A DNA stretch of 64,000 nucleotides from Cyanidioschyzon merolae (lineage: Eukaryota). The stretch is taken from NCBI GenBank assembly GCA_000091205.1, contig AP006499.2. One strand, written 5' to 3'. Below are positions 35,264 through 59,794 of this stretch, one piece after another. Below the pieces are notes generated by a model, which searched no databases, was not told the DNA's origin, and worked only from the letters and a program-made list of their open reading frames with translations. The position numbers were made by a program, and so were the translations under genes. Within the stretch, counting starts at the first letter, position 1; every line of letters starts with the position of its first letter.

Positions 35264-38200
35264 CTACCAGGATTGCTTCAATCGTTCCATTTCCGCCTCG
35301 ATGGTGTGTATCTCAGCGAGGTACGCTTCACAGCGGCGCCAAATGGCCGTGTCGGTCAATCCTGGCAGCTCCAGAGACGTAGAGCATCTTGTGGGTTGCC
35401 CGATGTTTTGAGGCGCGCCCCCGCTCGGCGCTGGAACAGATGCCGACGATGCGTCCAGCGTTTCGGGACTCGTGGAATCAGATAACGCGACTTGGGCTTC
35501 GAGCGATTCTATGGCATCATTCCACGCCTGCCAGGTGAGTGCGAGGCGAACCTTGCATCGCAGATACCGCAACCAGGCTATCTGCGCGAAGAATGTCGCG
35601 TCCATTCGGTGCCGCTCCAGATGAAGCACCAGCGAAAGCGCAAGGTCGTGATTCTGCAACCAAGGCCGCTGCCGCTCTGTCAACGCTGCATTCTCCTGAA
35701 GCCGTGCATTGGCTTCATGGACGGTTCCCGCTCCCATGTCCAAGGGCAACGCCTGCTCTGGACGACACACCCGGAGGACACCGATCGAACGAATCGTTCT
35801 GGTAATGATCCGAGCTGTACGGCTCGCAAATGAATCGCTATCTGCAAATGCAGGTTTTGTACGCATACATGGGGGCTTCGCGAGCGACACCTGCGCACCG
35901 GGTCCAAGCGACTTGGATGTACCGTTCAGCATCGGGTTTGCGCTGGACGACGAGGCGGGCGTCTCGGTGCTGTTCGCGGCGGCGTTCGGGTCAGCTTCGT
36001 CTTTGTGAACACCACGACCAGATGCAGTGATGTCTCCCGTGGATAACCCGTTGCCTAGCGGACTCGCAGCAGAACTTGCGCTGCCGTTCAAGCGCCAAGC
36101 CGGATTCGATCCCGCTGATGCCGTTCGCTCTGGGGCGGCTGCGGGCGTTGCTGACGGAGCGCGTCGCGGGGTCAACGTTGCAGAGCTGTCGCCATCGATC
36201 GGTCCGAATACCTCTTTCGGAATGCGATATGCATCTAACGGGTACTGGTGGCCTTGCTGCCTGTCCAGCGGATGGCGATGACGGTGATCCTCAACCGGTG
36301 CGTCGGTAGCATCGAGATCGCATTCCTCGATAATGCCCCGATCGATGAGCGCATCCGTCACCGCAACGATATCGTCCATGGGAAATACGGAACCGTTCGA
36401 CTCGCTTCTGCCGGTGCGGTCGGTCGAGAGACCCAATAAAAACGCAATCGCTCGTCGTATCGTTGGCACTGTGATGAGCATCAGCAGCGGGATCGACTCT
36501 TCCTGCAGCCGTTGACGCCAAGACTCGCGCTGTGCCGCTGTGGCACAGACAACGATCCGAAGGAGTTTGATTTCTGCCCAAATCCAAGGCGGGTAATCAC
36601 CATACGGTGGGGGGATGTAGCTGGCGGGTACCGCTGGCGCCGTACCCCGCCAAGCGGGCGAGATATTGGTCCCGTCACGAGCTTGCAGCTTGTAATAGGG
36701 CGCCCCGGTACCCATCGCTGGAGTCGCTGTTGACTGCACCAACGCGCCATTCACTTGCGTATCTGCGTTGTGATGAGGCACGTGAACAGGTCGCTGTTGA
36801 ACACGCCTCTTGATTTCCGCAACCAGCTCCCGATAGGGATCTTCAAGATGGTGGAACGGCACGAATAGCCCCGCAATCCGTTGTGCAACTTGCACAGTGA
36901 CTGCATGGTATTCCTTGGACTTGAGCTGCGCCATTCGAATGCAGTTTGCGATATCTTCAAGGCAAGCGTTGAGTGCCGGGCTCCGACACCAAAACAGGCG
37001 TGTCACGTCCTCCTCGGCTTTGATGCACTGTCGCGACGCTTCGACCGCGCTCACATAGGTGTCGAGTCTGCTGGTGATCTCGTGCCTCCACCAGACTTGA
37101 GCTTGCGTTACGACTTGGCGCAGATACGCTTCGCTGCCGTATGCTTGAATGTATTCATCGGCGTCTTTGACGTGAGACGGTAGCTGCGCGACACAGAGAT
37201 GCAAACCAAAACGTTCCCCATATCGTTGATATTTGTCAAGAAACATCCCAATCGTTCGTTTGGTGGCCCGGCTGCCCGCCTCGTCCTGGTCGAGCTGCAG
37301 AATGAGCCGTGGACGCAGTCTCTTGGATGAGCGCAAGGCGTGTTCGTTTTCTATCAAGCGCACGAGTTCTACGAGCATCTCGCATTGCGCGGATGTAACA
37401 CTTGTTCCAAGCGATGCGACGGCGAACCAGATACCCTCCTGGTGCAGACGGAGCACGTCGAGGTAGCCCTCGACGAGCACTACGCAGGGTCCAAAAGCAT
37501 CGGCAAGACGCCAGTCGTCCGCAAACTCCTCAGGAAAGCGAACTCTTCTCAGCGTCTCCGACATGCCGAAGAGAATCCGAGCCTTTTGAAAGACCGGTGT
37601 TTCCGGCGTATTCACATACTTGGGCCCAGTGAACGCCTCCTCCTGGGTAGGTGCTGTGACTGCCCTGAGCTGAACCTTAGTGAGGTAGCTATCCGCGTCT
37701 CGCATCGCCGTGGACCCCGACGCAGTGCTGAACATCGACGAAGCCGTTCCTACCATGGATATCGAAGGTCCGGGCAAAGAAGCAGCGCCATGACCATGGC
37801 TTCCGGAGGACCCGTTCTCCGCTGGCGGTAGCACCAGAACCGCTTCCGCTGGGTCAGGTTCCCTGGACTCAAGGCGACGGCCCCCGAATCCAACGACTCT
37901 ACCCTCTGCATCCAGGATGGGGATCATAATACGATCGCGGAAGACGTCGTAGAGGCCCTGCGAAGGCGTCCTGATCCCGAGCTTCTCCTTGTCTTGTGGC
38001 AGTGGTCGCACCTTGGCCAGACCTGCCAGAACAAGATCCTCTCCGGTAACTGCAAGCTCCGTCTGCTCATACAACATATAATCTACAAGCTCACGCCATC
38101 CAGCTGGTGCGTAACCGATACGGAAGGTGTCAATGGTGCGAGGTGAAAACCCTCGTCTCTCACAGAGGTACCGGAAGAGCCGTCGGGCCTCCGGAGAAAG

Positions 38201-38902
38201 ATGCTCTGGCCTACTTTGCAGATCCTTCAGCTGACGTCGGAAAAACTTCAGTGCGAGACTGTTCATATGCAGTACTTTCTGCTGAACTGCCGACTGCATG
38301 GAAAGCTCCTTGGGTGCGATCGCGTCAACGCCAGCGTTCACGAACGGTACGTGCTGCACAGCATCTTTTGCGTGACGTGTTTCTGACGCTTGGAGCGGAC
38401 TTGTTGATACGATCTCCTTGTTATCCTTGACATAGCTCAAGAGCGTTTTCGCAGCGGCGTGAAAGTCAGTTTTGTGTATGTTCATGAGGAAGCGGATCGC
38501 ATCCCCACTGGCACCGCAACCGAAACAGTGAAAGTACCCGCGCTCGTCGTCCACTAACATGCTCGCAGTCCGCTCGTCGTGAAACGGGCAAAGACACATA
38601 TAGCGGTTGGGTCCGCTTGGTCGTGAAGACCGCACGTGCGGCTGCACCAAGTCGAAGAGGCTGACTCGCTTTTTCGCCTGTTGCACGGACTCGCGGTCAA
38701 TTCTACTGCAGGCTACCAGTGCACGCCGAAAGCCCCCGCGTCCACCCCTCCGAAGTCGCGCGGAAACGGAAAGACCGTGCTGAGCTTTGGTGGTCGCGAT
38801 GAGGCGTTCGCAGACGCTCTGCGGGGCAAACGCTGGTGCCTGCAACGGCACACCGTTTCGCGGGTAGGAACGGCGTTTCCCCAAAGTCGCTCCGTCTGAC
38901 AT
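35264..38902 (-). CDS. dnaG: Bacterial DnaG-type DNA primase (zinc-binding + RNA-polymerase core + Toprim), nuclear-encoded, 1212 aa with long C-terminal extension
   Basis: The CHC2 zinc-binding domain CLCPFHDERTASMLVDDERGYFHCFGCGASGDAIRFLM resembles E. coli DnaG CCPFHNEKTPSF...YHCFGCGAHGNAIDFLM. The primase core contains FRDRIMIPILDAEGRVVGFGGRRL and GPKYVNTPETPVFQKARILFG. The Toprim domain contains VVLVEGYLDVLRLHQEGIWFAVASLGTS and LQLDQDEAGSRATKR. An N-terminal ~90 aa Arg-rich leader is present. The ATG at 38902 was verified. Confidence 0.85.
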   Translation of the reverse strand: MSDGATLGKRRSYPRNGVPLQAPAFAPQSVCERLIATTKAQHGLSVSARLRRGGRGGFRRALVACSRIDRESVQQAKKRVSLFDLVQPHVRSSRPSGPNRYMCLCPFHDERTASMLVDDERGYFHCFGCGASGDAIRFLMNIHKTDFHAAAKTLLSYVKDNKEIVSTSPLQASETRHAKDAVQHVPFVNAGVDAIAPKELSMQSAVQQKVLHMNSLALKFFRRQLKDLQSRPEHLSPEARRLFRYLCERRGFSPRTIDTFRIGYAPAGWRELVDYMLYEQTELAVTGEDLVLAGLAKVRPLPQDKEKLGIRTPSQGLYDVFRDRIMIPILDAEGRVVGFGGRRLESREPDPAEAVLVLPPAENGSSGSHGHGAASLPGPSISMVGTASSMFSTASGSTAMRDADSYLTKVQLRAVTAPTQEEAFTGPKYVNTPETPVFQKARILFGMSETLRRVRFPEEFADDWRLADAFGPCVVLVEGYLDVLRLHQEGIWFAVASLGTSVTSAQCEMLVELVRLIENEHALRSSKRLRPRLILQLDQDEAGSRATKRTIGMFLDKYQRYGERFGLHLCVAQLPSHVKDADEYIQAYGSEAYLRQVVTQAQVWWRHEITSRLDTYVSAVEASRQCIKAEEDVTRLFWCRSPALNACLEDIANCIRMAQLKSKEYHAVTVQVAQRIAGLFVPFHHLEDPYRELVAEIKRRVQQRPVHVPHHNADTQVNGALVQSTATPAMGTGAPYYKLQARDGTNISPAWRGTAPAVPASYIPPPYGDYPPWIWAEIKLLRIVVCATAAQRESWRQRLQEESIPLLMLITVPTIRRAIAFLLGLSTDRTGRSESNGSVFPMDDIVAVTDALIDRGIIEECDLDATDAPVEDHRHRHPLDRQQGHQYPLDAYRIPKEVFGPIDGDSSATLTPRRAPSATPAAAPERTASAGSNPAWRLNGSASSAASPLGNGLSTGDITASGRGVHKDEADPNAAANSTETPASSSSANPMLNGTSKSLGPGAQVSLAKPPCMRTKPAFADSDSFASRTARIITRTIRSIGVLRVCRPEQALPLDMGAGTVHEANARLQENAALTERQRPWLQNHDLALSLVLHLERHRMDATFFAQIAWLRYLRCKVRLALTWQAWNDAIESLEAQVALSDSTSPETLDASSASVPAPSGGAPQNIGQPTRCSTSLELPGLTDTAIWRRCEAYLAEIHTIEAEMERLKQSW

Positions 38903-40777: not shown

Positions 40778-41757
40778 TCGCCATCGAACTCGCTCACAGT
40801 CCGATGGCATAGCTTCGACGATATGCGTCAGCGTCTCGCGGATGCATTACTGCAACCGGTATTCAAGGAACAGACATCATTTTCTGGACGGTTGCATCCC
40901 CGCACTGTTTTTCGCGTTGCAGCTCTGGTGTCAGGAACTGAAGCTTGATAGAGCTACAGGCGCTCGAGTAGAACGTGTACCTCGGGTGCGCGTTGCGGCG
41001 CTGGAAGCGCGCCCTCTGGTCCACGTAGGTCAGGAGCACGCCGTGCGGATGCGTTGCATCAGCACCACGCAGCCTAGCTGTCTATGCAAGGTGCCGCTAA
41101 TGCGTTCTTCGCTCGAGGCGGCTCGTGCAAAAACGCTCCACAGGCTTCTATGAAGGGCCTGCTCGTCCCTGACGCACTGCCGCTGAGACCGATGCAACAG
41201 TGTTTCGGGCCCATTGCGCAAGCCACCGTCATTCGACTCTGTTGCAGCAAGGGACCGGTGTTCCCGCTGGCGAACCAGATTACGGACATGTGTTTCGTGC
41301 CCTATGCACGCTATCTGTTCTAAACGGGCAAAGAACCGTGGCCGTGTACGCTCGTGTTTGGTCAGGTCCTGCCACAATCCGGAGCTGGGCGGATACACCA
41401 GACCACCTGGCGTCTCCGTGCAAACCCCGATTCTTGGTGAAGCGGTTGTGTTCCCCTGTGCAGCGTTTCATGACCAGGAGCACGCCAACAGGTTCAACAC
41501 CAATCCAGCGGGAACAGGGACTAGGACGAAGCCCCACACAGGTTTTTGCCCCGTTATGGGATCAGAAAATCTACCCAAAAAGAAACCCTGGACTGCGGGC
41601 ATGCTGCTCAGTCAGCGGGGTAGACAACTCAAAGGATCACGTGTTGCTTTCGACATGCCCGCGTCACCGGATCCTGGTGGCCACCGAGCAAGCCCTGCAC
41701 TGGTACCTCCTCGTCTCCATAGAGAAGCGCAACATCCATCGGTATTAAAGTCGAGTA

Positions 41758-42100
41758 ACCTGTGAGAAACCTGAATCTATATACATCCATCAGTAATCAA
41801 GTCGGATACCCTGTGAGAAACCTGAATCTATATACATCCATCAGTAATCAAGTCGGATACCCTGTGAGAAACCTGAATCTATATACATCCATCAGTAATC
41901 AAGTCGGATACCCTGTGAGAAACCTGAATCTATATACATCCATCAGTAATCAAGTCGGGTACCCTGTGAGAGACCTGAATCTATATACATCCATCAGTAA
42001 TCAAGTCGGATACCCTGTGAGAAACCTGAATCTATATACATCCATCAGTAATCAAGTCGGATACCCTGTGAGAGACCTGAATCTATATACATCTATTGAA
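41758..42100. repeat. 51-bp tandem repeat, ~6.5 copies, each with a TATATACAT core
   Basis: The unit ccctgtgagaaacctgaatctatatacatccatcagtaatcaagtcggata repeats nearly perfectly, with minor variants gagaaacc/gagagacc and cggata/cgggta. The array ends ~25 bp before the first ATG (42124) of the downstream + strand gene. It appears in the ORF track as the artefactual ORF 41762-42133. Confidence 0.95.
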
Positions 42101-43692: not shown

Positions 43693-44154
43693 TCAGTAGG
43701 GATAGCGGTACGTCGAACCGCCCTCGCTTCCGCTAGTGCCGCCCATCCCAGAATCGTGTCCGTCGCCTGCCTTGTTTGTACGTCGAGTGCCTTTGAGTTC
43801 TTTTTTCTGTTCCTGTATAACCTTCCGCAGCTCTGAGCAGAGGTTTCGCGCTTCTAAAAGATGCTTCCTAGCCCGCTTGCCTGCAGCTTGATTACCTTTC
43901 TCAAAAAATTTACTCGCCTCACGCTCTATTGAGCCAAGTGCCTGACGGAGCGCTTGTAGCTTTTCCATGTGAGCTGCTCCAGAATCGCGCTTAGGCTCGA
44001 AGCGTTCGTCCACGGCGATCGTTGAGGCTTCTCGAAAAGCGTGCCCCCAACAGCGACGGCGTATGCAGCGTGCCCGCCAGGCGCAGACTGGAGATGGCGG
44101 GAAATTCGCCCTGGGCGCGGCGTGCGCGCGCACGCTCGCACCAACCGTATCCAT
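43693..44154 (-). CDS. Small basic protein with Hc1 (bacterial histone H1-like)-type motif; boundaries uncertain
   Basis: ASKFFEKGNQAAGKRARKHLLEARNLCSELRKV resembles the Chlamydia HctA/Hc1 N-terminal helix LLKAEKGNKAAAQRVRTESIKLEKIAKVYRK. A Gly/Ser-rich C-terminal tail follows. Both the ATG at 44154 and the ATG at 43968 (MEKLQ...) are possible starts. The upstream 62 aa are Arg-rich and could be a presequence. Confidence 0.3.
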   Translation of the reverse strand: MDTVGASVRAHAAPRANFPPSPVCAWRARCIRRRCWGHAFREASTIAVDERFEPKRDSGAAHMEKLQALRQALGSIEREASKFFEKGNQAAGKRARKHLLEARNLCSELRKVIQEQKKELKGTRRTNKAGDGHDSGMGGTSGSEGGSTYRYPY

Positions 44155-47952: not shown

Positions 47953-50424
47953 TCAGCAGCGTTCAAAGATGCGATAGAGCCGTTCCGTTCGCGCAACCAC
48001 CGTGAGCGTACCATCCCGCCCCCAAACCGCCGGCGCATGAAAGCGTTCATGATCGCGAACAAGGATTAAAACGCGTTCGGCTGCTCCAGCTATGGCAGCT
48101 AGATCCTCGGTAGAGTGCTTTTCCATCGTGAACGCTTCTAGGTAACTCTCTGTATACAGAAGCGCCAGTGCCCGAATAACCTGCCGTATTCGAGTCTGGC
48201 GATCCGCTTCGTGCCGATAACGCACTAAGCGATCACCGAAAAGCGTCAAGCTCGAGGCTCGTGGATGAACCGCCACCGAACAATCTACCCATGGAAGGCT
48301 GTGCAGATACAGGTGGAGAGCCTGCGGCCTCGCCGACCAGCAGCTGAGACGCGTTGGACCTTCCCCGAGTTCACTCATGTGCCCTATTTCAGGACATAAC
48401 GGCTCAAGACAGAGATGAATCCCGCAGTAGAAAGCGAGCTCCAATGCATATGAGTACCAACTGGAAAGAAACTCGCCGTTTGCGTCCACACTCGGGCGAT
48501 TCGAGACATCGAGCTCTACGACCCAAGGAGATTGGAGCCGGACGATAGGCGTTGCTGCGGGTTGCGGCTCCAAAGCACCTACAAGCTGCTGATAATAGAG
48601 TTCCTCCAGTATCCGTGACAAATCGACCGCAACAAGCGCAGTACCGAACTGAATCAAACAGCAACGATCGTCAACAGCACCAACAAAGACGTGCTCGCGA
48701 AAGACCTCGGCAATCGCATGCGAATACCCATCGACACATTCCCTGTGGAGCGCTTCTGCGATGCGCTCTCGCGTTGTCGTCGCTTCTAACTGGAGGCAGC
48801 GGGACAGCGTGCTATCCCCGTTGTGCCCTGCTGAGCGTGCGGGCGTTGTCAATACGCGTACCCGTCCTTGTATGACCCCAGTAACGCTCTGCCATTGCTC
48901 CAGCCTGGTAGATTGAGCATCGACTCGAATTCGCTGCGACGGCGGCAGTGTACACGTAGATGATCGCTGACTAAATAGACGCTGCTTGTGCTCTGTACAA
49001 AGCTGTTCCCAGCAGTCTGCAGCGTCCAGTTGCCTTGATCCGCCATCCTGGGCGTTCGCGCAAGCGACAACTTTCCCGGTACCTGCGTCGTTCGGTGGAC
49101 CCGCCATCGCTTCAGCAGCACGCTTGCGAGTGCTCCCGATGAGTGCTTCCCGCAACGACTCGAGGCTGACAGTGGCTCGGGCGGCCTCTGCGTCCGAGTC
49201 CCGTGGCAGCAACGCAGCTGTGCCAGAGCCGGCACGTACCCGAGGCGCCTGCACCGCGAAACTCCGTTGCGCGCCACTACTGATGAGTTGTTGCTCTAAC
49301 GCCTGCACGATATTGGAAAAGGCAATTTGCTCATCGAGAAAACGAACTTCTTTCTTTGCCGGATGCACATTCACATCAAGAATTTCAGGGGGCACCTTCA
49401 GCTCCAGATAGCAAAACGGGTGATGCGGACCTTTCAAGTAGTACCTGGCGTACAGTTGCTCGATGGCTCTCCGGAGAGTACGACACTCGACGAGGCGCCC
49501 ATTCACAAAATAGATATGCAATGGTTTCGTCTGACTCGCTCCAAGCAGACTGAAATACGCGCGCTCAAGCAAGATTTCTGCCTCCTGGACGGTACCCGCA
49601 ACTGCGTGCTGCACTCGGTGAAGCACCCGGCATCCGAGTGTTCCCAACGAGGATGCCACCTTCTGTCCAAATATAGCTCGAATGTTATCCAAGTGGCTAG
49701 CATGGACAAACGTATGAAGGTCGTCGGTTTCCGCTTCCGTCGCTCGCAGAGCGCAAGTCTCGCGCTTCCGACAGCACATCGCTATTCGCCCGGAATGATA
49801 GAGTGCATAACGGGATACGATACTAAGCATCTGACGGTATTCTTCAGCGTGCGTGCGAAGAAAACTCTCATATCTAGCGGGCATGGAGCGGAACATATCC
49901 GTCACCAGGATGGTGGTACCCGGTGTCCGGGCTGCGGCCTGCACCCCAGGAGCCACCAGTTTCCCCTGCCGATAGCTCGCTCTCCAGCCGTGCTCTTCAT
50001 GATGCGTCCGGGAAACTATGCAAAGTTCGCTGATGTGTGATATGGAGGCGAGCGCCTCACCCCGAAAGCCACAGGTGGCGACCTTGGCGAGATCCTCCAC
50101 TGAACGCAACTTGCTCGTGGTGTGGCGTTCGCATAGCAACCGGGCGTCCTGCACTCGGATTCCACACCCGTTGTCGACAACCTCAAGACGAACGATCCCG
50201 CCACGAATTATCGACACGCTTATACGTGTCGAACCGGCGTCGATGGCGTTCTCTAAGAGCTCTTTTAGCGCTGCCGAGGGACGGGCGACCACCTCTCCAG
50301 CTGCCATGCGACTGACGACTTCTGGTCCAAGCGGCAAAATCCGCCGCGGCAGCTTCTCCTCGTCATTTGTTTGTTGGTCAACCTCCGAAGGAACCGCTGC
50401 ATTAACGTCGGAGTTTATTTCCAT
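47953..50424 (-). CDS. MLH1: DNA mismatch repair protein MLH1
   Basis: The GHKL ATPase motifs are present (LKELLENAIDAGSTRISV, VVDNGCGI and GFRGEALASISHISEL). The C-terminus ends in the MLH1-specific FERC. The start was set at ATG 50424 (MEINSDV...), because the longer ORF-track N-terminus has no homology. Confidence 0.9.
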   Translation of the reverse strand: MEINSDVNAAVPSEVDQQTNDEEKLPRRILPLGPEVVSRMAAGEVVARPSAALKELLENAIDAGSTRISVSIIRGGIVRLEVVDNGCGIRVQDARLLCERHTTSKLRSVEDLAKVATCGFRGEALASISHISELCIVSRTHHEEHGWRASYRQGKLVAPGVQAAARTPGTTILVTDMFRSMPARYESFLRTHAEEYRQMLSIVSRYALYHSGRIAMCCRKRETCALRATEAETDDLHTFVHASHLDNIRAIFGQKVASSLGTLGCRVLHRVQHAVAGTVQEAEILLERAYFSLLGASQTKPLHIYFVNGRLVECRTLRRAIEQLYARYYLKGPHHPFCYLELKVPPEILDVNVHPAKKEVRFLDEQIAFSNIVQALEQQLISSGAQRSFAVQAPRVRAGSGTAALLPRDSDAEAARATVSLESLREALIGSTRKRAAEAMAGPPNDAGTGKVVACANAQDGGSRQLDAADCWEQLCTEHKQRLFSQRSSTCTLPPSQRIRVDAQSTRLEQWQSVTGVIQGRVRVLTTPARSAGHNGDSTLSRCLQLEATTTRERIAEALHRECVDGYSHAIAEVFREHVFVGAVDDRCCLIQFGTALVAVDLSRILEELYYQQLVGALEPQPAATPIVRLQSPWVVELDVSNRPSVDANGEFLSSWYSYALELAFYCGIHLCLEPLCPEIGHMSELGEGPTRLSCWSARPQALHLYLHSLPWVDCSVAVHPRASSLTLFGDRLVRYRHEADRQTRIRQVIRALALLYTESYLEAFTMEKHSTEDLAAIAGAAERVLILVRDHERFHAPAVWGRDGTLTVVARTERLYRIFERC

Positions 50425-50694
50425 GCAGTGAAAGCCATATCGTCGAGTGCGTACGCAAGTTGGGACGCGCTCAACGCTCCCGCGCACCACTGCCAGTGGC
50501 AGACGTCTACCGGCATATTGTGCTCACTCCGGGAAGGCGCGCTTTTTTCCTGGCGACTTGTCATTTACACGAACCCAGGGGAACTCGATTGAGCGCTTGT
50601 TCACTGAATTGGGAGAACTTTCCGGGAACTCGCCCTGGAACCGTGTCGCTTCTCAGGAACAAACTCAGTACCGCATGGTCTAGGTCGTTCGACT

Positions 50695-51864
50695 ATGCTC
50701 GTGGGTATCATCGGACGCAGGTGTGCCGGAAAGAAAACGGTACACAGTTTACTTGTCGAGCGTTTTGGCTTTCTTCCAGCGTACCTGGAACCAGCTGAAA
50801 TCGAAGCGAATCCTCAAGTACGACAGCAACCAGTCTCGCTGGTTTCTGGACAGCCTGCTTGCAACGATGAGCCGCTAGCAGCCCTGACACTGGAGGCACC
50901 GAGCGACTGCTGGCGATCGGATAGGTTTTACGTCCTGCCACCAGGATTGAGCACGAAGCAGGCCAGGGCGCTGAGGAAACGGCCGTACTTTCTCCTCCTA
51001 GCTGTAGACGCTCCTGGACTTGTTCGTTTCCGGAGATGGCAGAGCCAATGCGCATCCGAAGGCACAAACTGCATAGCATCCGCTTCCCAGAGCAGTGTCC
51101 TGGAGTTCCTTCGGCTCGATGACGCCGATTACTTTGGACAAGCTGTGACGGATGCTGGCTGGGATGCTCGTTGCGAGCACGAGGCCGTGGCGGTACCACG
51201 CCCATCGCCAGACGACCCTGATGCACTGTGGCGGGCCTTTGAGCTGAGCGACGTCCGTGTCTATAACCCCACGGACAATCGTGAGCAGCTTGCCGCAGCG
51301 TTGCAGCGTTTGCAGCTTCAGAGACCTGATTGGCTTCGTCCCGCCTGGGATACCTATTTCATGCGCATTGCGGAGCTCGCCTCGATGCGAACGAACTGTA
51401 TGAAGCGGCGCGTAGGTGCGGTGATTGTGCGAGATCATCGCGTCATTGCCACGGGTTACAATGGTACACCGCGAGGTACACGGAACTGCAACGAAGGCGG
51501 CTGCCAGCGGTGTAATGGTGGAGCTCGAGCTGGCCACGCTCTTGACGTTTGTCTGTGTTTGCACGCCGAGGAGAACGCGATCATCGAGGCAGGACGGGAG
51601 CGGTGTGCAGGTTCCACGCTCTTCACCAACCTCTGTCCTTGTTTGGCGTGCACGAAGAAAATCGTACAAGCAGGCATCCGCGAGGTCGTCTACGGAGCCA
51701 CGTACGCTATGGATACGCGTTCTGCGCGCCTATTTGCTGAAGCAGGTGTCCGAATGCGGCACTATCCGTGCACCTTGTCCAGGGGAAGCAGCGCACCGTT
51801 CGAGGTAACCTCCGTATCTCCCGTTGTCAGCAACCATTCGACACAATTGCAGTCCAGCGGATAG
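50695..51864 (+). CDS. dCMP deaminase with N-terminal P-loop (kinase-like) domain
   Basis: The C-terminal CMP/dCMP deaminase zinc site comprises HAEENAIIEAG and CPCLACTKKIVQAGIREVVYG. The N-terminal ~150 aa carry Walker A GIIGRRCAGKKT and a Walker-B-like FLLLAVDAP. The ATG at 50695 was verified. Confidence 0.8.
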   Translation: MLVGIIGRRCAGKKTVHSLLVERFGFLPAYLEPAEIEANPQVRQQPVSLVSGQPACNDEPLAALTLEAPSDCWRSDRFYVLPPGLSTKQARALRKRPYFLLLAVDAPGLVRFRRWQSQCASEGTNCIASASQSSVLEFLRLDDADYFGQAVTDAGWDARCEHEAVAVPRPSPDDPDALWRAFELSDVRVYNPTDNREQLAAALQRLQLQRPDWLRPAWDTYFMRIAELASMRTNCMKRRVGAVIVRDHRVIATGYNGTPRGTRNCNEGGCQRCNGGARAGHALDVCLCLHAEENAIIEAGRERCAGSTLFTNLCPCLACTKKIVQAGIREVVYGATYAMDTRSARLFAEAGVRMRHYPCTLSRGSSAPFEVTSVSPVVSNHSTQLQSSG

Positions 51865-52868: not shown

Positions 52869-53651
52869 TCACTCGTCCTGATTATCCTCAGATGGAAGCT
52901 CTATGTCCTTCCCTGTTGTCGGACTAAGCAGAACACAACGACCGCCGGCTTCTTCGATCTTTCGCACCGCAGAAGATGAGAAGGCGTGCGCTTTCACTGT
53001 CAGGTTGCGCACCGTGATCTCTCCATCGCCGAGGATCTTGAACAACTTCAAATTCGTTCGATGAATGGCGCCGGTTTCAATCAGGACGTGCGGGGTTACC
53101 ACTGAGCCTTCCGCACAGGTATTCAGCGCTTTCACGTTCACTGGCTGATACTCAATGCGCCGGTGGCTTGGACCCGGAGGACGCCCACGGTACTTGGGGA
53201 TACGGCGATAGAGCGGCATCTGGCCACCCTCGAAGCCTGGCCGAATAGATCCACCGGAGCGCGACTTTTGCCCGCGCATACCGTATCCGCACGAGCCCCC
53301 TTGCCCTGCTGCAATACCCCGGCCCTTGCGTTTCTTCCGGTGCACACTGCCAGGTGCTGGAGCAAGGTTCCCCAACGTAAAGTTCTCGTTCGCTATTTCT
53401 TCCGGAATTTTGCCTTCTTTGTCCACAATTCGAATAGCTTGCAGCTCTCGTAGACCACTGTGCACGCTGTTGCCGGTAGCTACTCGTCGCGCGCTCGCCA
53501 GTCGCCACGACGACAGGAAGGGCGACGCACCAGCGTGCAGCATCGCTCGCCGGGTGCTTCCGACAGGACACCAGGCGGACTGAGTGCTCAGTGAGGCACG
53601 CAAGTGCTCTCCGCGACCACAAGACAGCCGAGGGAAAGTCAGGAACGCCAT
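52869..53651 (-). CDS. Organellar (bacterial-type) ribosomal protein uL15 with N-terminal presequence
   Basis: [49 protein letters not shown] matches bacterial L15 [44 protein letters not shown]. The ORF-track start at 53666 is GTG, so the ATG at 53651 was used. Confidence 0.8.
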   Translation of the reverse strand: [260 protein letters not shown]

Positions 53652-53930
53652 GGTTCCCCCGTGCACGCCACCCAGTCTGTTCTGTAGCCTCGAGCGCTGT
53701 GAACGCAGGCGTCAAAGTCGCTCCAGTACCGACGACGACGACGCTACTGCGCTATCGACAGTGTGCACCGGCCAGGGGCACGGCCGACGTCGTCGACGCA
53801 CCTTGCCATCTGGACATAATTGAATATTCATGAACATTTCTGAAAAAATAGACAAAGATCCATGCATGCCCCTATTCGCGCCCTGCGCACCGCAGCGCGT
53901 CGCCACTGCGACAGGGACAGCGTCACCGCG

Positions 53931-54172
53931 ATGCATCATGACCAATGGTGTCCTTGAATGTCCCTATTCTCGCCCGCGTGCTGCGCATCAGATGCACCAT
54001 GACCAATGGTGTCCTTGAATGTCCCTATTCTCGCCCGCGTGCTGCGCATCAGATGCATCATGACCAATGGTGTCCTTGAATGTCCCTATTCTCGCCCGCG
54101 TGCTGCGCATCAGATGCACCATGACCAATGATGTCCTTGAATGTCCCTATTCTCGCCCGCGTGCCGCGTCCG
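53931..54172. repeat. 61-bp tandem repeat x4 (plus a degenerate 5th copy from ~53860), each unit with a CCAAT core
   Basis: The unit catgaccaatggtgtccttgaatgtccctattctcgcccgcgtgctgcgcatcagatgca(c/t) starts at 53941 and again at 54002, 54063 and 54124. The array lies between the divergent uL15 (start 53651) and RPL4 (start 54291) genes. Confidence 0.95.
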
Positions 54173-54290
54173 TCGCCACCGGCATCCGCGCAAGGCGCTC
54201 GCGTTTCCCCCAAATGCATACTGCATCGTCTGCAAACGACGTTACAGCAGTGCTTCGTGTGCAGTGACAAGGGCCCGCGTTGCCGTAGCC

Positions 54291-55439
54291 ATGGCGTACG
54301 CATCGAGGCCGCTTGTTTCTGTGATATCGACAAAGACAGGTGAGTCTATTGGCGAGCAAGTCAAGTTGCCACAAGTGTTTCTGGCTCCGATTCGCCCGGA
54401 TGTGGTGCAGATCGTGCACACCGGCGTGGCGAAGAACGCCCGTCAGCCGTACGGTGTGAGCCGGATGGCCGGCGAGTGGGCCACTGCGCACTCCTGGGGA
54501 ACAGGTAGGGCAGTCTCCCGAGCGCCTCGTGTGCACGGAGGCGGTACGCATCGATCGGGTCAAGTGAGCGGTGCGAACTTTGCACGAGGGGCTCGCATGT
54601 TCGCTCCGACTCGTATCTGGCGACGTTGGCACGTCAAAGTCAGCCGCGGCCAGCGTCGCTATGCAGTCGCCTCGGCGCTGGCGGCCAGTGCCCTACCCGC
54701 CCTGGTCATGTCGCGTGGCCATCGCATCGACTCTGTCCCTGAACTGCCGCTGGTGCTGAGTGAGGACTCCGAGTCCCTGCGCCGTACCAAGGACGCCGTC
54801 GCTCTCCTGAAAGCGATTGGTGCATATGAGGATGTCGAGCACGCAGCGAAATCGAAGAATCAACGGGCCGGTCGCGGTAAAATGCGCAATAGGCGGTACA
54901 CTATGCGTCGGGGTCCTCTCATTATCTACGCGAATAGCGAGAAAGATCCCAAGTCGGGTGCACCAGACAACCTCAGTCGCGCTTTCCGTAATTTGCCTGG
55001 CGTCGAGTGCTGTCATGTGGAGCGCTTGAATCTCCTCCAGTTGGCACCAGGAGGTCATCTCGGCAGGTTCTGCATATTCACGAAGCAGGCCTTCGAGCGC
55101 CTTGATGAAATTTACGCCACCGGTAAGAGCGGCTTCAAGTTCCCTCGGGCAGTGATGACGCAGGCGGATCTCTCGCGTATCATCAACTCGGACGAGGTTC
55201 AGAGTGCGCTGCGTCCGATCCGACGGGTGCCGAGGTTGCCACGGTTGAAGCGCAACGCCTTGCGTAATCGCCGGATGATGCGCTTACTCAATCCTGCCTA
55301 TGATGCTTTCATACGCAAGATGAGCGAGCGTGTACCGGACGCATCACGGCGCTTGCCAGCGTCAGAGAGAGCTCGCGTCCGAGCGATTGGAAAGCGATAC
55401 ATTCGCCAGTTGCTGGACACAAATCCAACCGAAGTTTAA
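54291..55439 (+). CDS. RPL4: 60S ribosomal protein L4 (uL4, cytosolic)
   Basis: RPLVSVISTKTGESIGEQVKLPQVF...GVSRMAGEWATAHSWGTGRAVSRAPRVHGGGTHRSGQVSGANFARGARMFAPTRIWRRWH is typical of eukaryotic L4/L1e. The start was set at ATG 54291 (MAYASRPLVSV). The ORF-track start at 54141 lies inside the tandem repeat. Confidence 0.9.
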   Translation: MAYASRPLVSVISTKTGESIGEQVKLPQVFLAPIRPDVVQIVHTGVAKNARQPYGVSRMAGEWATAHSWGTGRAVSRAPRVHGGGTHRSGQVSGANFARGARMFAPTRIWRRWHVKVSRGQRRYAVASALAASALPALVMSRGHRIDSVPELPLVLSEDSESLRRTKDAVALLKAIGAYEDVEHAAKSKNQRAGRGKMRNRRYTMRRGPLIIYANSEKDPKSGAPDNLSRAFRNLPGVECCHVERLNLLQLAPGGHLGRFCIFTKQAFERLDEIYATGKSGFKFPRAVMTQADLSRIINSDEVQSALRPIRRVPRLPRLKRNALRNRRMMRLLNPAYDAFIRKMSERVPDASRRLPASERARVRAIGKRYIRQLLDTNPTEV

Positions 55440-57877: not shown

Positions 57878-59794
57878 GGAGCGCGCGGAGCTGCTGCTCG
57901 GCGTTCTGTGGCAGCGCTTTGAACCGCAACAAACCGATGGTGTTCAGAACGCGACCTGTCCTTTCCGCTTTTTCAAAAAAGAACCCGTAAGGTACCCGCA
58001 AACCTGCAAGCACGTCTAGCCGTGCCTCTCCCGTACGCTGTGCCAGGCGTCCAAAGCATCCAATCCTGGCGGGCGCAACCAGCGGCCGGGAGGCGTCGCC
58101 ATCGAACCCCAATGATGCCTGTCCAATTATGGACGATTTATTCAAATATTTTCAGGATGCGCTTCGCGCACTGAACGCGCCTCCTCTTGGATGCGGGCAG
58201 GCAAGCACACTAGCAGGCAAGTAAAAACACAGAGTTGTTTCGGCTCATGGATACAAAAGCGCATTCGTGGCATAGCATTGACAGGTAAGGATGTACGGGA
58301 CGCGTGTCGGATGGCAATGGAGCGCTGAACTGGCTGCCCTGTTCCGGCATGTCGATGTTTGAAACGTTATTTTGTAGATGGACAGCGTCGACATGCAGAG
58401 CGCAGCAATGACTGCATACGAACGCATGCGTATTTTGCGGATTCACGGTCGTGTATCCAGAGAGGCTCCTTCGAGACGCTGCTGCTGAAATCGGGTCCGT
58501 CATCGGAATCGAGATGATTTGCGACGCACTCGAACGATGCCGCGTAAAATGACGGACATCATGATTCAATGCATGTGCACAATTCGCCATGCTTCACATA
58601 AGCCAACGTGTAGCATGCTCCCATCATGCACGCTTCAAGCTTTCGATTTTTTCATTTGAAGGCAACTGGTTCGCGGAGCAATCGGTGGCGCCCGATTCAC
58701 GACTAATCAGATAGAACCTTGTCCGTCGACGATTTGTTCGCAAGTTCATGCAGAGATTTCCTGAAACTCCTCATGCCAAATCGTCGATTCGCCTCGAAAT
58801 ACAAATCCTCTCCTGTTTGTTGACATCCGCGAATCGCGATTCGACGGCAGCGGAATCGTTCTCGTACGGGAAAAGCTCCATGAGACTCCCGTCGCTCTTC
58901 TTCCCATGGGATCGAGTCTCGGTCTCGGACTTGCATCATCAAATGGATCGCATGTACTGGAGCCTGCGTCACCGCTGTGCACGAAGCGGTCGTCGACGGA
59001 TCGAGATTTCTCGACTTGGTCTCCAGCCTAGATTGTCCCACCGGTACATGTTTCATCATACACAGCATCGCGTTCCACCCATGCATTCTATCGAGTGGAA
59101 CAGCGTAAGCTTGCACGCACAGCGGACACAGTACGCGCCCAGTGTATCACCCAGAAGTAGCCTGTGATCGTCGTCCACGACAACGGGCGCGGAAACAAAT
59201 GAGAATATCTGGGAGAGCCCTCTGTACCCGTCATGCGCATGCAGCAAACGGCGAGGCAAGCGCTCACGTGCCACAGGGCTACTCTCGAACGAGCCGATTT
59301 GCTGGACACAGACGGGAACACAGCGCAGTGTCACCGCTGGGAAGCGCACACTGAGACTCGATGCAAACGACACGAGTATGGCACGCCAAGCTTTGACAGC
59401 AACTGCTGCTTCTGCATGGAAAGCGCTGACAACACCTGGACTCGTCGATATCGGGACGTTACAACTGCTGTCAACATCCTCCAACTGCTGATAACGAAGG
59501 TTTAGATATGGAACGGACCTGCATCTTCCAAGCTGGATCAGAGAGAGTGAGAGGAAAAGGAGCTTCTCTCAGATACAACACACCAAAGGCTGCTTTCGAT
59601 CAAAGGCGGAAGCTGCCAAAACGTTAGCGTCCACACCCGAGTTTCTGGAACCGTTCCGTTTTACGCTGACATGGATATAACGAAAGCAGCCGCTTCAATC
59701 ATAACGCTTTTCATGGAGATCTGAAGACCGGTTCGTTCTATCCCACATCACCCGCGCTCGACAAGAACACTCTCCCCGTCGATGCGTCGCAATC

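What the first reader, a model, noticed from the sequence alone, without database searches (positions are those of the whole stretch)
53651..54291. Bidirectional ribosomal-protein promoter containing a 61-bp x4 tandem array of CCAAT-box units
The divergent start codons of organellar uL15 (53651, minus) and cytosolic RPL4 (54291, plus) are 640 bp apart. Most of that interval is a near-perfect 61-bp tandem repeat. Every unit contains gaCCAATgg, a consensus NF-Y/CCAAT box, and a short palindrome-like gcgcatcagatgca segment. The ORF caller extended RPL4 into the array. Such a multimerised CCAAT element looks like a natural enhancer array coordinating two ribosomal genes.
Basis: seen in the sequence. 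Interest (0 to 1): 0.5.

Follow-up and report, generated by a model that had tools for sequence, protein, structure and literature searches.

The report
Copy-variable 61-bp repeat between ribosomal genes
A 61-bp stretch between two back-to-back ribosomal-protein genes of a hot-spring red alga is repeated one to five times depending on the strain: a real but ordinary promoter minisatellite, with nothing so far showing that its CCAAT motifs act as an enhancer.

Summary
The array is real: 53930-54168, period 61, 3.9 copies, 97% identity. It sits between the divergent start codons of an organellar-type uL15 (53651, minus) and cytosolic RPL4 (54291, plus). The genome is from a Cyanidioschyzon-like red alga. 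The array covers 37% of the interval, not most of it.

Public assemblies of the same species (about 99.4% identical) carry 0.9, 1.9, 2.9, 3.9 or 4.9 copies. Ten more contigs break at the array. Three sister lineages keep the gene pair but have no repeat. A 25-mer of the unit was found only at this locus.

RNA-derived chimeric contigs place mRNA 5' ends at 53706-53734 and 53829-53833 for uL15, and at 54272-54276 for RPL4. The array therefore lies upstream of both main start sites. One RNA-series contig does read into its last units.

CCAAT is not enriched in this window's intergenic DNA. It is present in one of three orthologous promoters. Its fourfold presence reflects one sequence copied four times.

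Best reading: a young, lineage-specific promoter VNTR made by serial tandem duplication. Copy-number-dependent regulation is possible but unshown.

The parts
52869..53651 (-). Organellar-type (bacterial-like) uL15 gene, 260 aa, with a long N-terminal extension
   Evidence: ORF. Pfam Ribosomal_L27A, E=1.3e-16. Best named homologues are '50S ribosomal protein L15' of red algae and red-plastid lineages.
53706..53734 (-). Proximal cluster of inferred uL15 mRNA 5' ends (5' UTR about 55-83 nt)
   Evidence: RNA-derived contigs L024, L023, L021 and L025 switch to foreign or self-derived sequence at window 53706, 53720, 53722 and 53734. The L023 partner is 18S rRNA (Rfam SSU_rRNA_eukarya, E=2.5e-9).
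53829..53833 (-). Distal inferred uL15 mRNA 5' ends (5' UTR about 178-182 nt), inside the AT-rich core
   Evidence: Contigs L022 and L026 come from two samples and end cleanly at 53829 and 53833.
53816..53855 (.). AT-rich core of the intergenic region; on the minus strand it carries a TATA-like CTATTTTTT about 25-30 nt upstream of the distal uL15 5' end
   Evidence: Most AT-rich 40-mer of the interval. Equivalent cores sit at -182, -192 and -186 from the RPL4 ATG in L011, L013 and L012. Sequence read.
53858..53905 (+). Older, diverged duplicate (about 79% identity) of the 3' part of the unit plus its right flank (54133-54179)
   Evidence: Local alignment score 42; 0 of 1000 shuffles reach it. 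Also family D1.
53930..54168 (+). 61-bp tandem array, 3.9 copies (three full units plus a 56-nt last unit); a minisatellite/VNTR
   Evidence: Copy number is 0.9-4.9 in other assemblies of the species.
53942..53946 (+). CCAAT pentamer of unit 1. The same pentamer recurs at 54003-54007, 54064-54068 and 54125-54129.
   Evidence: These are -349, -288, -227 and -166 from the RPL4 ATG.
53985..53995 (.). Perfect 11-nt palindrome GCATCAGATGC created at each unit junction (also 54046-54056 and 54107-54117)
   Evidence: It is absent from the one-copy allele L004.
54141..54290 (+). Spurious 50-codon N-terminal extension of the RPL4 ORF that starts in the last unit
   Evidence: ORF 54141-55439. Orthologues start at MAYASRP. 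The inferred mRNA 5' end lies downstream of 54141.
54272..54276 (+). Inferred main RPL4 mRNA 5' end (5' UTR about 15-19 nt)
   Evidence: L009 fuses unrelated AT-rich sequence at window 54272. L010 and L044 fuse at 54276.
54291..55439 (+). Cytosolic RPL4 (uL4) gene, 382 aa, no intron
   Evidence: Pfam Ribosomal_L4 and Ribos_L4_asso_C. 88% identical to the Cyanidiococcus yangmingshanensis protein.

Best explanation
The feature is a young, lineage-specific, copy-number-variable 61-bp minisatellite. It lies in the spacer between the start sites of a conserved divergent gene pair (organellar uL15 and cytosolic RPL4) in a Cyanidioschyzon-type red alga.

It most likely arose by replication slippage or unequal recombination in a stretch that had already been duplicated once. 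The older duplication has a period of about 92 nt. The duplicated segment happened to contain one CCAAT pentamer, so every unit carries one.

Each extra unit adds 61 bp. That moves the AT-rich core and the uL15 start sites further from the RPL4 start site. Strains tolerate anything from about 1 to 5 units. A dose effect of the copied motif on transcription is possible but is not needed to explain the data.

Shown: the array, its position, its variability, its absence from sister lineages and its restriction to this locus.
Inferred: the transcript ends, the duplication mechanism and the selective neutrality.
For: Array and significance.

Species context:
- RPL4 is 88% identical to Cyanidiococcus.
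- The block MLH1, dCMP deaminase, uL15, RPL4, ankyrin protein and FtsH is syntenic in L011, L012 and L013.

Copy number in resolved genomic contigs:
- 0.9 copies: L004 and L027.
- 1.9 copies: L001, L007, L015, L016.
- 2.9 copies: L008.
- 3.9 copies: the window, L003, L005, L006.
- 4.9 copies: L002.
- Copy number tracks flanking SNP haplotypes.
- Arrays of 56 or 117 nt are shorter than a read, so assembly collapse cannot create them.
- Ten further contigs (L020, L028-L036) stop inside the array.

Lineage and locus specificity:
- There is no tandem repeat in the orthologous intergenic regions.
- The AT-rich core is 182-192 nt from the RPL4 ATG in all three sister lineages. Here it is 292 nt away in the one-copy allele and 475 nt away in the window.
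- The older diverged duplicate flanks the array.
- A 25-mer of the unit occurs in the metagenome collection only on three contigs, all of them this locus.
- There is no other copy in the window.

Position relative to transcripts: the array starts 97 nt beyond the distal uL15 5' end and stops 104 nt before the RPL4 5' end.

Motif statistics: CCAAT is not enriched in intergenic DNA.

Other evidence: a second minisatellite (51 bp x 7.1) ends 31 bp upstream of an unrelated gene in the same window. Such arrays are therefore not a ribosomal-gene speciality.
Against: - The array sits almost centrally between the two start-site clusters, where upstream activating elements would be.
- The CCAAT has flanks that fit the NF-Y consensus.
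- Cyanidiococcus has CACCAATGG at -114 from its RPL4 ATG.
- A published table lists an NF-YA for C. merolae. A regulatory contribution of the unit is therefore plausible, and neutrality is not demonstrated.
- Copy numbers of 3.9 and 4.9 in short-read assemblies could be misestimates.
- The transcript ends come from chimeric contigs whose library type I could not check.
- One RNA-series contig (L046) begins 78 nt inside the array.
Confidence: 0.6

Rival explanations
1. Functional promoter VNTR. Each unit supplies one binding site, a CCAAT box for NF-Y and/or the junction palindrome. Unit number would then tune transcription of RPL4, uL15 or both.
For: - The array lies between both start-site clusters.
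- The flanks of the pentamer fit the NF-Y consensus (sequence; consensus from my own knowledge).
- CACCAATGG sits at -114 in Cyanidiococcus.
- One NF-YA is listed for C. merolae.
- Promoter VNTRs that change expression are documented elsewhere (abstracts of PMC5438627 and PMC8024321, listed).
Against: - Copy number is unconstrained, from 1 to 5.
- There is no array in sister lineages, and no CCAAT near RPL4 in L012 or L013.
- CCAAT is not enriched in the window's intergenic DNA.
- The nearest CCAAT is about 147 nt from the inferred RPL4 start, further than the classical -60 to -100.
- The junction palindrome contains an E-box-like CAGATG, but the same table lists no bHLH factor in C. merolae.
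- Similarity between the unit and the Cyanidiococcus promoter is marginal; 12 of 300 shuffles reach it.
Confidence: 0.25
2. The array is transcribed and acts in RNA. It could be a long 5' UTR of RPL4, a coding N-terminal extension (the 432-aa ORF), or a cluster of small RNAs. On the minus strand each unit starts with TGATGC and ends with CTGA, which loosely resembles C and D boxes.
For: - An ORF runs from 54141 into RPL4.
- L046, from the RNA-type sample series, starts at 54091 inside the array.
- The C/D-like hexamers can be read.
Against: - In two samples (three assemblies) the RPL4 contig switches to foreign sequence at -15 or -19. Genuine upstream coverage there was therefore lower than that of rare chimeric reads.
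- Orthologous RPL4 proteins start at MAYASRP.
- Rfam finds nothing in the window at gathering thresholds.
- The putative C box lacks its final A, and the flanks form no convincing terminal stem.
- The D-like and C-like boxes overlap between neighbouring units.
Confidence: 0.06
3. Assembly artefact: the array, or its variation, is not real.
For: Tandem repeats are often collapsed or broken in short-read assemblies. Ten contigs break at the array.
Against: - The array is present in the window with unit-specific substitutions (T/C at unit position 7; G to A in the last unit).
- It is present in more than ten independent assemblies.
- The one- and two-copy alleles are shorter than a read, so reads must span both flanks.
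- Copy number follows flanking haplotype.
Confidence: 0.03

Closest known systems
Promoter minisatellites / VNTRs. Examples: unstable tandem repeats in yeast promoters, human MNS16A at TERT, MAOA-uVNTR, INS-VNTR.
   Same: - Head-to-tail units of tens of bp lie in the upstream region of a gene.
- Copy number is polymorphic between individuals or strains.
- Each unit carries a potential transcription-factor site.
   Different: - No effect on expression has been measured here.
- The array serves, or merely separates, two divergent genes.
- The host is a red alga with a very compact, repeat-poor genome.
- The yeast and MAOA/INS examples are cited from my own knowledge. MNS16A and the general expression effect come from abstracts listed.
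NF-Y (HAP2/3/5) CCAAT-box promoters
   Same: - A CCAAT pentamer with purines before it and G/G after it.
- It lies upstream of a TATA-less housekeeping-type gene.
- An NF-YA gene is reported in the species.
   Different: - The distance to the inferred start site (at least 147 nt for RPL4) is larger than the classical -60 to -100.
- The motif is not enriched in the window.
- It is conserved in only one of three sister promoters.
- Binding is untested.
Bidirectional promoters of head-to-head gene pairs
   Same: - Divergent genes have inferred start sites 439 bp apart (256 bp in the one-copy allele).
- The arrangement is conserved across four Cyanidiales lineages.
   Different: - The pair is conserved as part of a larger syntenic block, so conservation says little about shared regulation.
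- The two start sites appear to have their own core regions: the AT-rich core for uL15, and a GC-rich segment next to RPL4.
- Co-expression is untested.
Multimerised viral or cellular enhancers (e.g. SV40 72-bp repeats)
   Same: Near-identical tandem copies of a segment that contains factor-binding motifs, placed upstream of the start sites.
   Different: No evidence of activity. Copy number is not maintained. Comparison from my own knowledge only.

Membership tests
Promoter minisatellite / VNTR | Head-to-tail repeats with a unit of about 10-100 bp | tested here: met
   Period 61, 3.9 copies, 97% identity. Shuffles gave 0 matches.
Promoter minisatellite / VNTR | Copy number differs between individuals or strains | tested here: met
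   0.9, 1.9, 2.9, 3.9 and 4.9 copies in contigs about 99.4% identical to the window. Caveat: these are short-read assemblies. The one- and two-copy alleles cannot arise from collapse.
Promoter minisatellite / VNTR | Lies upstream of the transcription start, not in the transcript | tested here: inconclusive
   Main 5' ends inferred at 53706-53833 (uL15) and 54272-54276 (RPL4), from chimeric RNA-derived contigs. However, L046 reads 78 nt into the array, and library types could not be verified.
Promoter minisatellite / VNTR | Copy number changes expression of the adjacent gene | not testable with these tools
   Needs expression data per allele, or reporter assays.
NF-Y / CCAAT-box promoter element | CCAAT pentamer with consensus flanks (RR-CCAAT-SR) | tested here: met
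   tGA-CCAAT-GG in three units and tGA-CCAAT-GA in the fourth. The consensus is recalled from my own knowledge.
NF-Y / CCAAT-box promoter element | More frequent in promoters than chance allows | tested here: not met
   1.44 per kb observed in the window's intergenic DNA against 1.76 per kb expected from base composition. This is one 64-kb window only, not the whole genome.
NF-Y / CCAAT-box promoter element | Conserved in orthologous promoters | tested here: inconclusive
   CCAAT at -114 in Cyanidiococcus L011. None near RPL4 in L013 or L012. Unit versus L011 similarity is marginal.
NF-Y / CCAAT-box promoter element | Typical position -60 to -100 from the start site | tested here: not met
   The nearest CCAAT is about 147 nt from the inferred RPL4 5' end and about 109 nt from the distal uL15 5' end. 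The start sites are inferred.
NF-Y / CCAAT-box promoter element | The organism encodes NF-YA, NF-YB and NF-YC, and the complex binds the site | not tested
   Literature only. The TAPscan table lists CCAAT_HAP2 = 1, HAP3 = 0 and HAP5 = 3 for C. merolae (PMC8304369, supplementary file 21). Binding cannot be tested here.
Bidirectional promoter | Head-to-head genes with start sites less than 1 kb apart | tested here: met
   The ATGs are 640 bp apart. The inferred 5' ends are 439 bp apart.
Bidirectional promoter | Shared regulation or co-expression of the two genes | not testable with these tools
   No expression data. The arrangement is conserved in L011, L012 and L013, but within a larger syntenic block.
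C/D box snoRNA cluster | C box RUGAUGA and D box CUGA brought together by a terminal stem; match to a known family | tested here: not met
   The minus strand has TGATGC (imperfect) and CTGA, which overlap between units, and no convincing terminal stem (sequence). Rfam gathering search gave 0 hits. Red-algal snoRNAs are poorly represented in Rfam, so this is weak negative evidence.

The most novel reading that the evidence does not exclude
The array is a natural expression dial. Strains of this hot-spring alga carry 1 to 5 copies of a CCAAT-bearing unit between a cytosolic and an organellar ribosomal-protein gene. Unit number would measurably change the output or balance of the two genes. That would give a fast-mutating, selectable control over ribosome-component supply in an organism with very few transcription factors.
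Probability: 0.15. Interest if true: 0.45.

Novelty: new member of a known kind. Interest (0 to 1): 0.25.

Why it matters
If the unit number affects transcription, this would be a simple natural allelic series (1 to 5 units) for studying promoter architecture. The organism allows homologous-recombination knock-ins and has only about 120 transcription-associated proteins.

As it stands, the practical value is modest:
- A ready strain-typing marker for Cyanidioschyzon populations.
- A correction of a propagated mis-annotation: the 432-aa 'RPL4' in public protein collections begins inside the repeat.
- Approximate start sites for four genes, recovered from chimeric metatranscriptome contigs.

Tried and rejected
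- **Rfam on the whole window.** No hits at gathering thresholds. L009, L010 and L023 searched whole at E <= 0.01 also gave nothing. Only a 100-nt query recovered the 18S piece of L023.
- **tRNA scan.** None found.
- **snoRNA-cluster idea for the minus strand.** Rejected as unsupported (imperfect, overlapping boxes, no terminal stem), though not formally excluded.
- **Four-species MAFFT alignment of the intergenic regions.** Too divergent to use, 47% column identity. Pairwise local alignments gave only marginal unit-to-orthologue similarity.
- **Exact-sequence look-ups.** The window's own uL15 and its 2-hydroxyacid dehydrogenase were not on record. uL15 was reached through its 99% relative P0121. 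The second array could not be genotyped.
- **Pfam on the foreign ORF fused to RPL4 in L010.** Nothing found, so the partner organism is unidentified. It is AT-rich, and I guessed a co-occurring Galdieria or an organelle transcript.
- **Paper searches.** Searches for minisatellites or NF-Y together with Cyanidioschyzon returned nothing specific. Only a supplementary TAPscan table was useful.
- **Bacterial promoter/terminator scanner.** Not used, because the genome is eukaryotic.
- **Dispersed-repeat or transposon origin.** Rejected.
Full report
**What is there**

Reading 53400-54600 and running Tandem Repeats Finder confirm a 61-bp tandem array at 53930-54168, with 3.9 copies, 97% matches and score 450. 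The consensus unit matches three full copies with at most one mismatch, and shuffled sequence gave 0 matches.

- An ORF on the minus strand ends at an ATG at 53651. It matches Pfam Ribosomal_L27A, the uL15 family.
- An ORF on the plus strand matches Ribosomal_L4 plus the eukaryote-type C-terminal domain.
- The mechanical ORF for RPL4 starts at 54141, inside the last unit. Orthologues start with MAYASRP, which corresponds to 54291.

Three details of the observation are wrong:
- The array covers 239 of about 640 bp, not most of the interval.
- The fourth unit reads gaCCAATga, not gaCCAATgg.
- The palindrome (exactly GCATCAGATGC) exists only at the three unit-to-unit junctions.

**Whose genome**

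- G+C is 52-59% across the window.
- Genes are intron-free and closely packed on both strands.
- The best named RPL4 relative is Cyanidiococcus yangmingshanensis, at 88% identity.
- The Cyanidiococcus assembly GCA_026122185.1 has the same gene order: MLH1, dCMP deaminase, uL15, RPL4, an ankyrin protein and FtsH.
- Two more distant lineages share this order: L013 (RPL4 84% identical) and L012 (69% identical).

I infer that the window comes from a Cyanidioschyzon merolae-type red alga.

**Related sequences: the array is variable and lineage-specific**

An exact-protein look-up of RPL4 returned many environmental contigs about 99.4% identical to the window. I counted units between conserved flanks, treating loci fetched twice from one contig as one.

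| Copies | Contigs |
|---|---|
| 0.9 | L004, L027 |
| 1.9 | L001, L007, L015, L016 |
| 2.9 | L008 |
| 3.9 | window, L003, L005, L006 |
| 4.9 | L002 |

- Copy number follows the flanking SNP haplotype.
- Ten further contigs simply stop inside the array: L020 and L028-L036.
- Short-read assemblers can misjudge long arrays. Arrays of 56 and 117 nt are shorter than a read, however, and need real molecules that join both flanks. At least the low-copy alleles are therefore genuine.
- The window's own array has unit-specific substitutions.

The three sister lineages keep the divergent gene pair but have no tandem repeat there.

A 25-mer of the unit occurs in the metagenome collection on only three contigs, all of them this locus. 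One of those samples holds a 161-kb contig of the organism. The window holds no other copy. The unit is therefore not a dispersed element.

**History of the spacer**

In all three sister lineages the most AT-rich 40-mer of the intergenic region lies 182-192 nt upstream of the RPL4 ATG. In this lineage it lies 292 nt upstream in the one-copy allele and 475 nt upstream in the window.

The extra 100 nt of the one-copy allele are explained by an older duplication. Positions 53858-53905 are a copy, about 79% identical, of 54133-54179 (0 of 1000 shuffles reach the score). That gives a period of about 92 nt in the one-copy allele. The 61-bp amplification is a second, recent round at 97-100% identity. 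The stretch is evidently prone to tandem duplication.

A second minisatellite in the window (51 bp x 7.1, 41732-42093) ends 31 bp before the ATG of an unrelated dehydrogenase gene. Promoter-proximal arrays are thus not a ribosomal-gene speciality here.

**Where transcription starts (inferred)**

A look-up of a 99%-identical uL15 (P0121) returned six contigs of 3.1-3.4 kb. Each covers only the convergent pair uL15 and dCMP deaminase.
- Four of them switch to something else upstream of uL15. L023 switches to sequence that Rfam identifies as eukaryotic 18S rRNA (E=2.5e-9). L021, L024 and L025 switch to pieces of the uL15 coding region itself.
- The four junctions are at 53720, 53722, 53706 and 53734 respectively.
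- Two others, L022 and L026, end cleanly at 53829 and 53833.

RPL4-plus-ankyrin contigs behave the same way. L009 fuses unrelated AT-rich sequence at 54272, and L010 fuses at 54276. L044 carries the same junction as L010 and is probably the same data assembled independently.

An rRNA-to-mRNA fusion can only come from RNA. I read these contigs as metatranscriptome assemblies. In such assemblies rare chimeric reads extend a contig only where genuine coverage stops, which is at the mRNA 5' end.

On that reading:
- The uL15 5' UTRs are about 55-83 nt, with a longer form of about 180 nt.
- The RPL4 5' UTR is 15-19 nt.
- The array begins 97 nt beyond the distal uL15 end and stops 104 nt before the RPL4 end.

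Caveats:
- I could not check the library types.
- One contig of the same sample series (L046) starts at 54091, 78 nt inside the array. By arithmetic it ends where L010 ends. Low-level transcription, or contaminating DNA, across the last units therefore cannot be excluded.

**Is the CCAAT meaningful?**

The flanks (tGA-CCAAT-GG) fit the NF-Y consensus as I recall it. A published TAPscan table lists one NF-YA (CCAAT_HAP2), no HAP3, three HAP5 and no bHLH for C. merolae (PMC8304369, supplementary file 21). Cyanidiococcus has CACCAATGG at -114 from its RPL4 ATG.

Against significance:
- CCAAT/ATTGG occurs 1.44 times per kb in the window's intergenic DNA against 1.76 expected from composition. A 61-bp unit contains one by chance about 10% of the time.
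- The four copies are one observation copied.
- L013 and L012 have none near RPL4.
- Similarity between the unit and the Cyanidiococcus promoter is marginal; 12 of 300 shuffles reach it.
- The nearest CCAAT is about 147 nt from the inferred RPL4 start.
- The junction palindrome does not exist in the one-copy allele. Its E-box-like core has no obvious bHLH partner in this species.

**Verdict**

The placement in a shared upstream region is supported.

The 'enhancer array coordinating two ribosomal genes' is not supported by conservation, by copy-number constancy or by motif statistics. It remains untested functionally.

The best description is a young, locus-specific promoter VNTR produced by serial tandem duplication (confidence about 0.6). 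A dose-dependent regulatory role is the main rival (about 0.25). This is a new member of a well-known kind. It is useful as a strain marker and as a ready-made allelic series, but it is not surprising.

Noticed in passing
window 41732-42093: A second minisatellite, 51 bp x 7.1 copies at 96% identity. It ends 31 bp upstream of the ATG (42124) of a D-2-hydroxyacid dehydrogenase gene. It has no CCAAT. The window's protein is not on record, so copy-number variation could not be checked.
   Followed up: partly
window 54141-55439; protein P0001: Public collections hold a 432-aa 'large subunit ribosomal protein L4e' (14 member sequences). Its first 50 residues are translated from the tandem repeat and the 5' flank. 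This is an annotation error propagated by ORF callers.
   Followed up: yes
L009 1-458; L010 1-359 (same sequence in L044); L021, L023, L024, L025 5' ends: Environmental RNA-type contigs are chimeras joined exactly at mRNA 5' ends. The partners are 18S rRNA, pieces of the same mRNA, or unrelated AT-rich sequence. One AT-rich partner carries an open 123-codon frame with no Pfam match. These chimeras are useful as accidental start-site markers. The AT-rich partner organism was not identified.
   Followed up: partly
window about 58024-58039 and 58768-58876: RNA-type contigs end at 58024-58039. That is 147-162 nt upstream of the ankyrin gene ATG (57877, minus) and is probably its start site. Seven genomic contigs from different samples all stop at 58768-58876. 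One gene caller placed an odd 17-residue gene across 58625-59715. No repeat is visible there, and the cause is unknown.
   Followed up: no
window 43693-44154 (-): A 153-aa ORF matches Pfam Hc1, the chlamydial histone H1-like protein (E=1e-14). This is an unexpected, bacterial-type DNA-binding domain in a eukaryotic nuclear genome. It may be an organelle nucleoid protein.
   Followed up: no
window 35264-38902 (-): A 1212-aa protein carries a bacterial DnaG-type primase zinc ribbon, catalytic core and Toprim domains. It is presumably an organelle replication enzyme.
   Followed up: no
window 50361-50523: The RNA-type contigs that carry uL15 also give the far ends of the dCMP-deaminase transcript. 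These lie about 172-187 nt upstream of its ATG at 50695. One contig reaches 50361, past the MLH1 ATG at 50424. The two divergent transcripts may therefore overlap.
   Followed up: no
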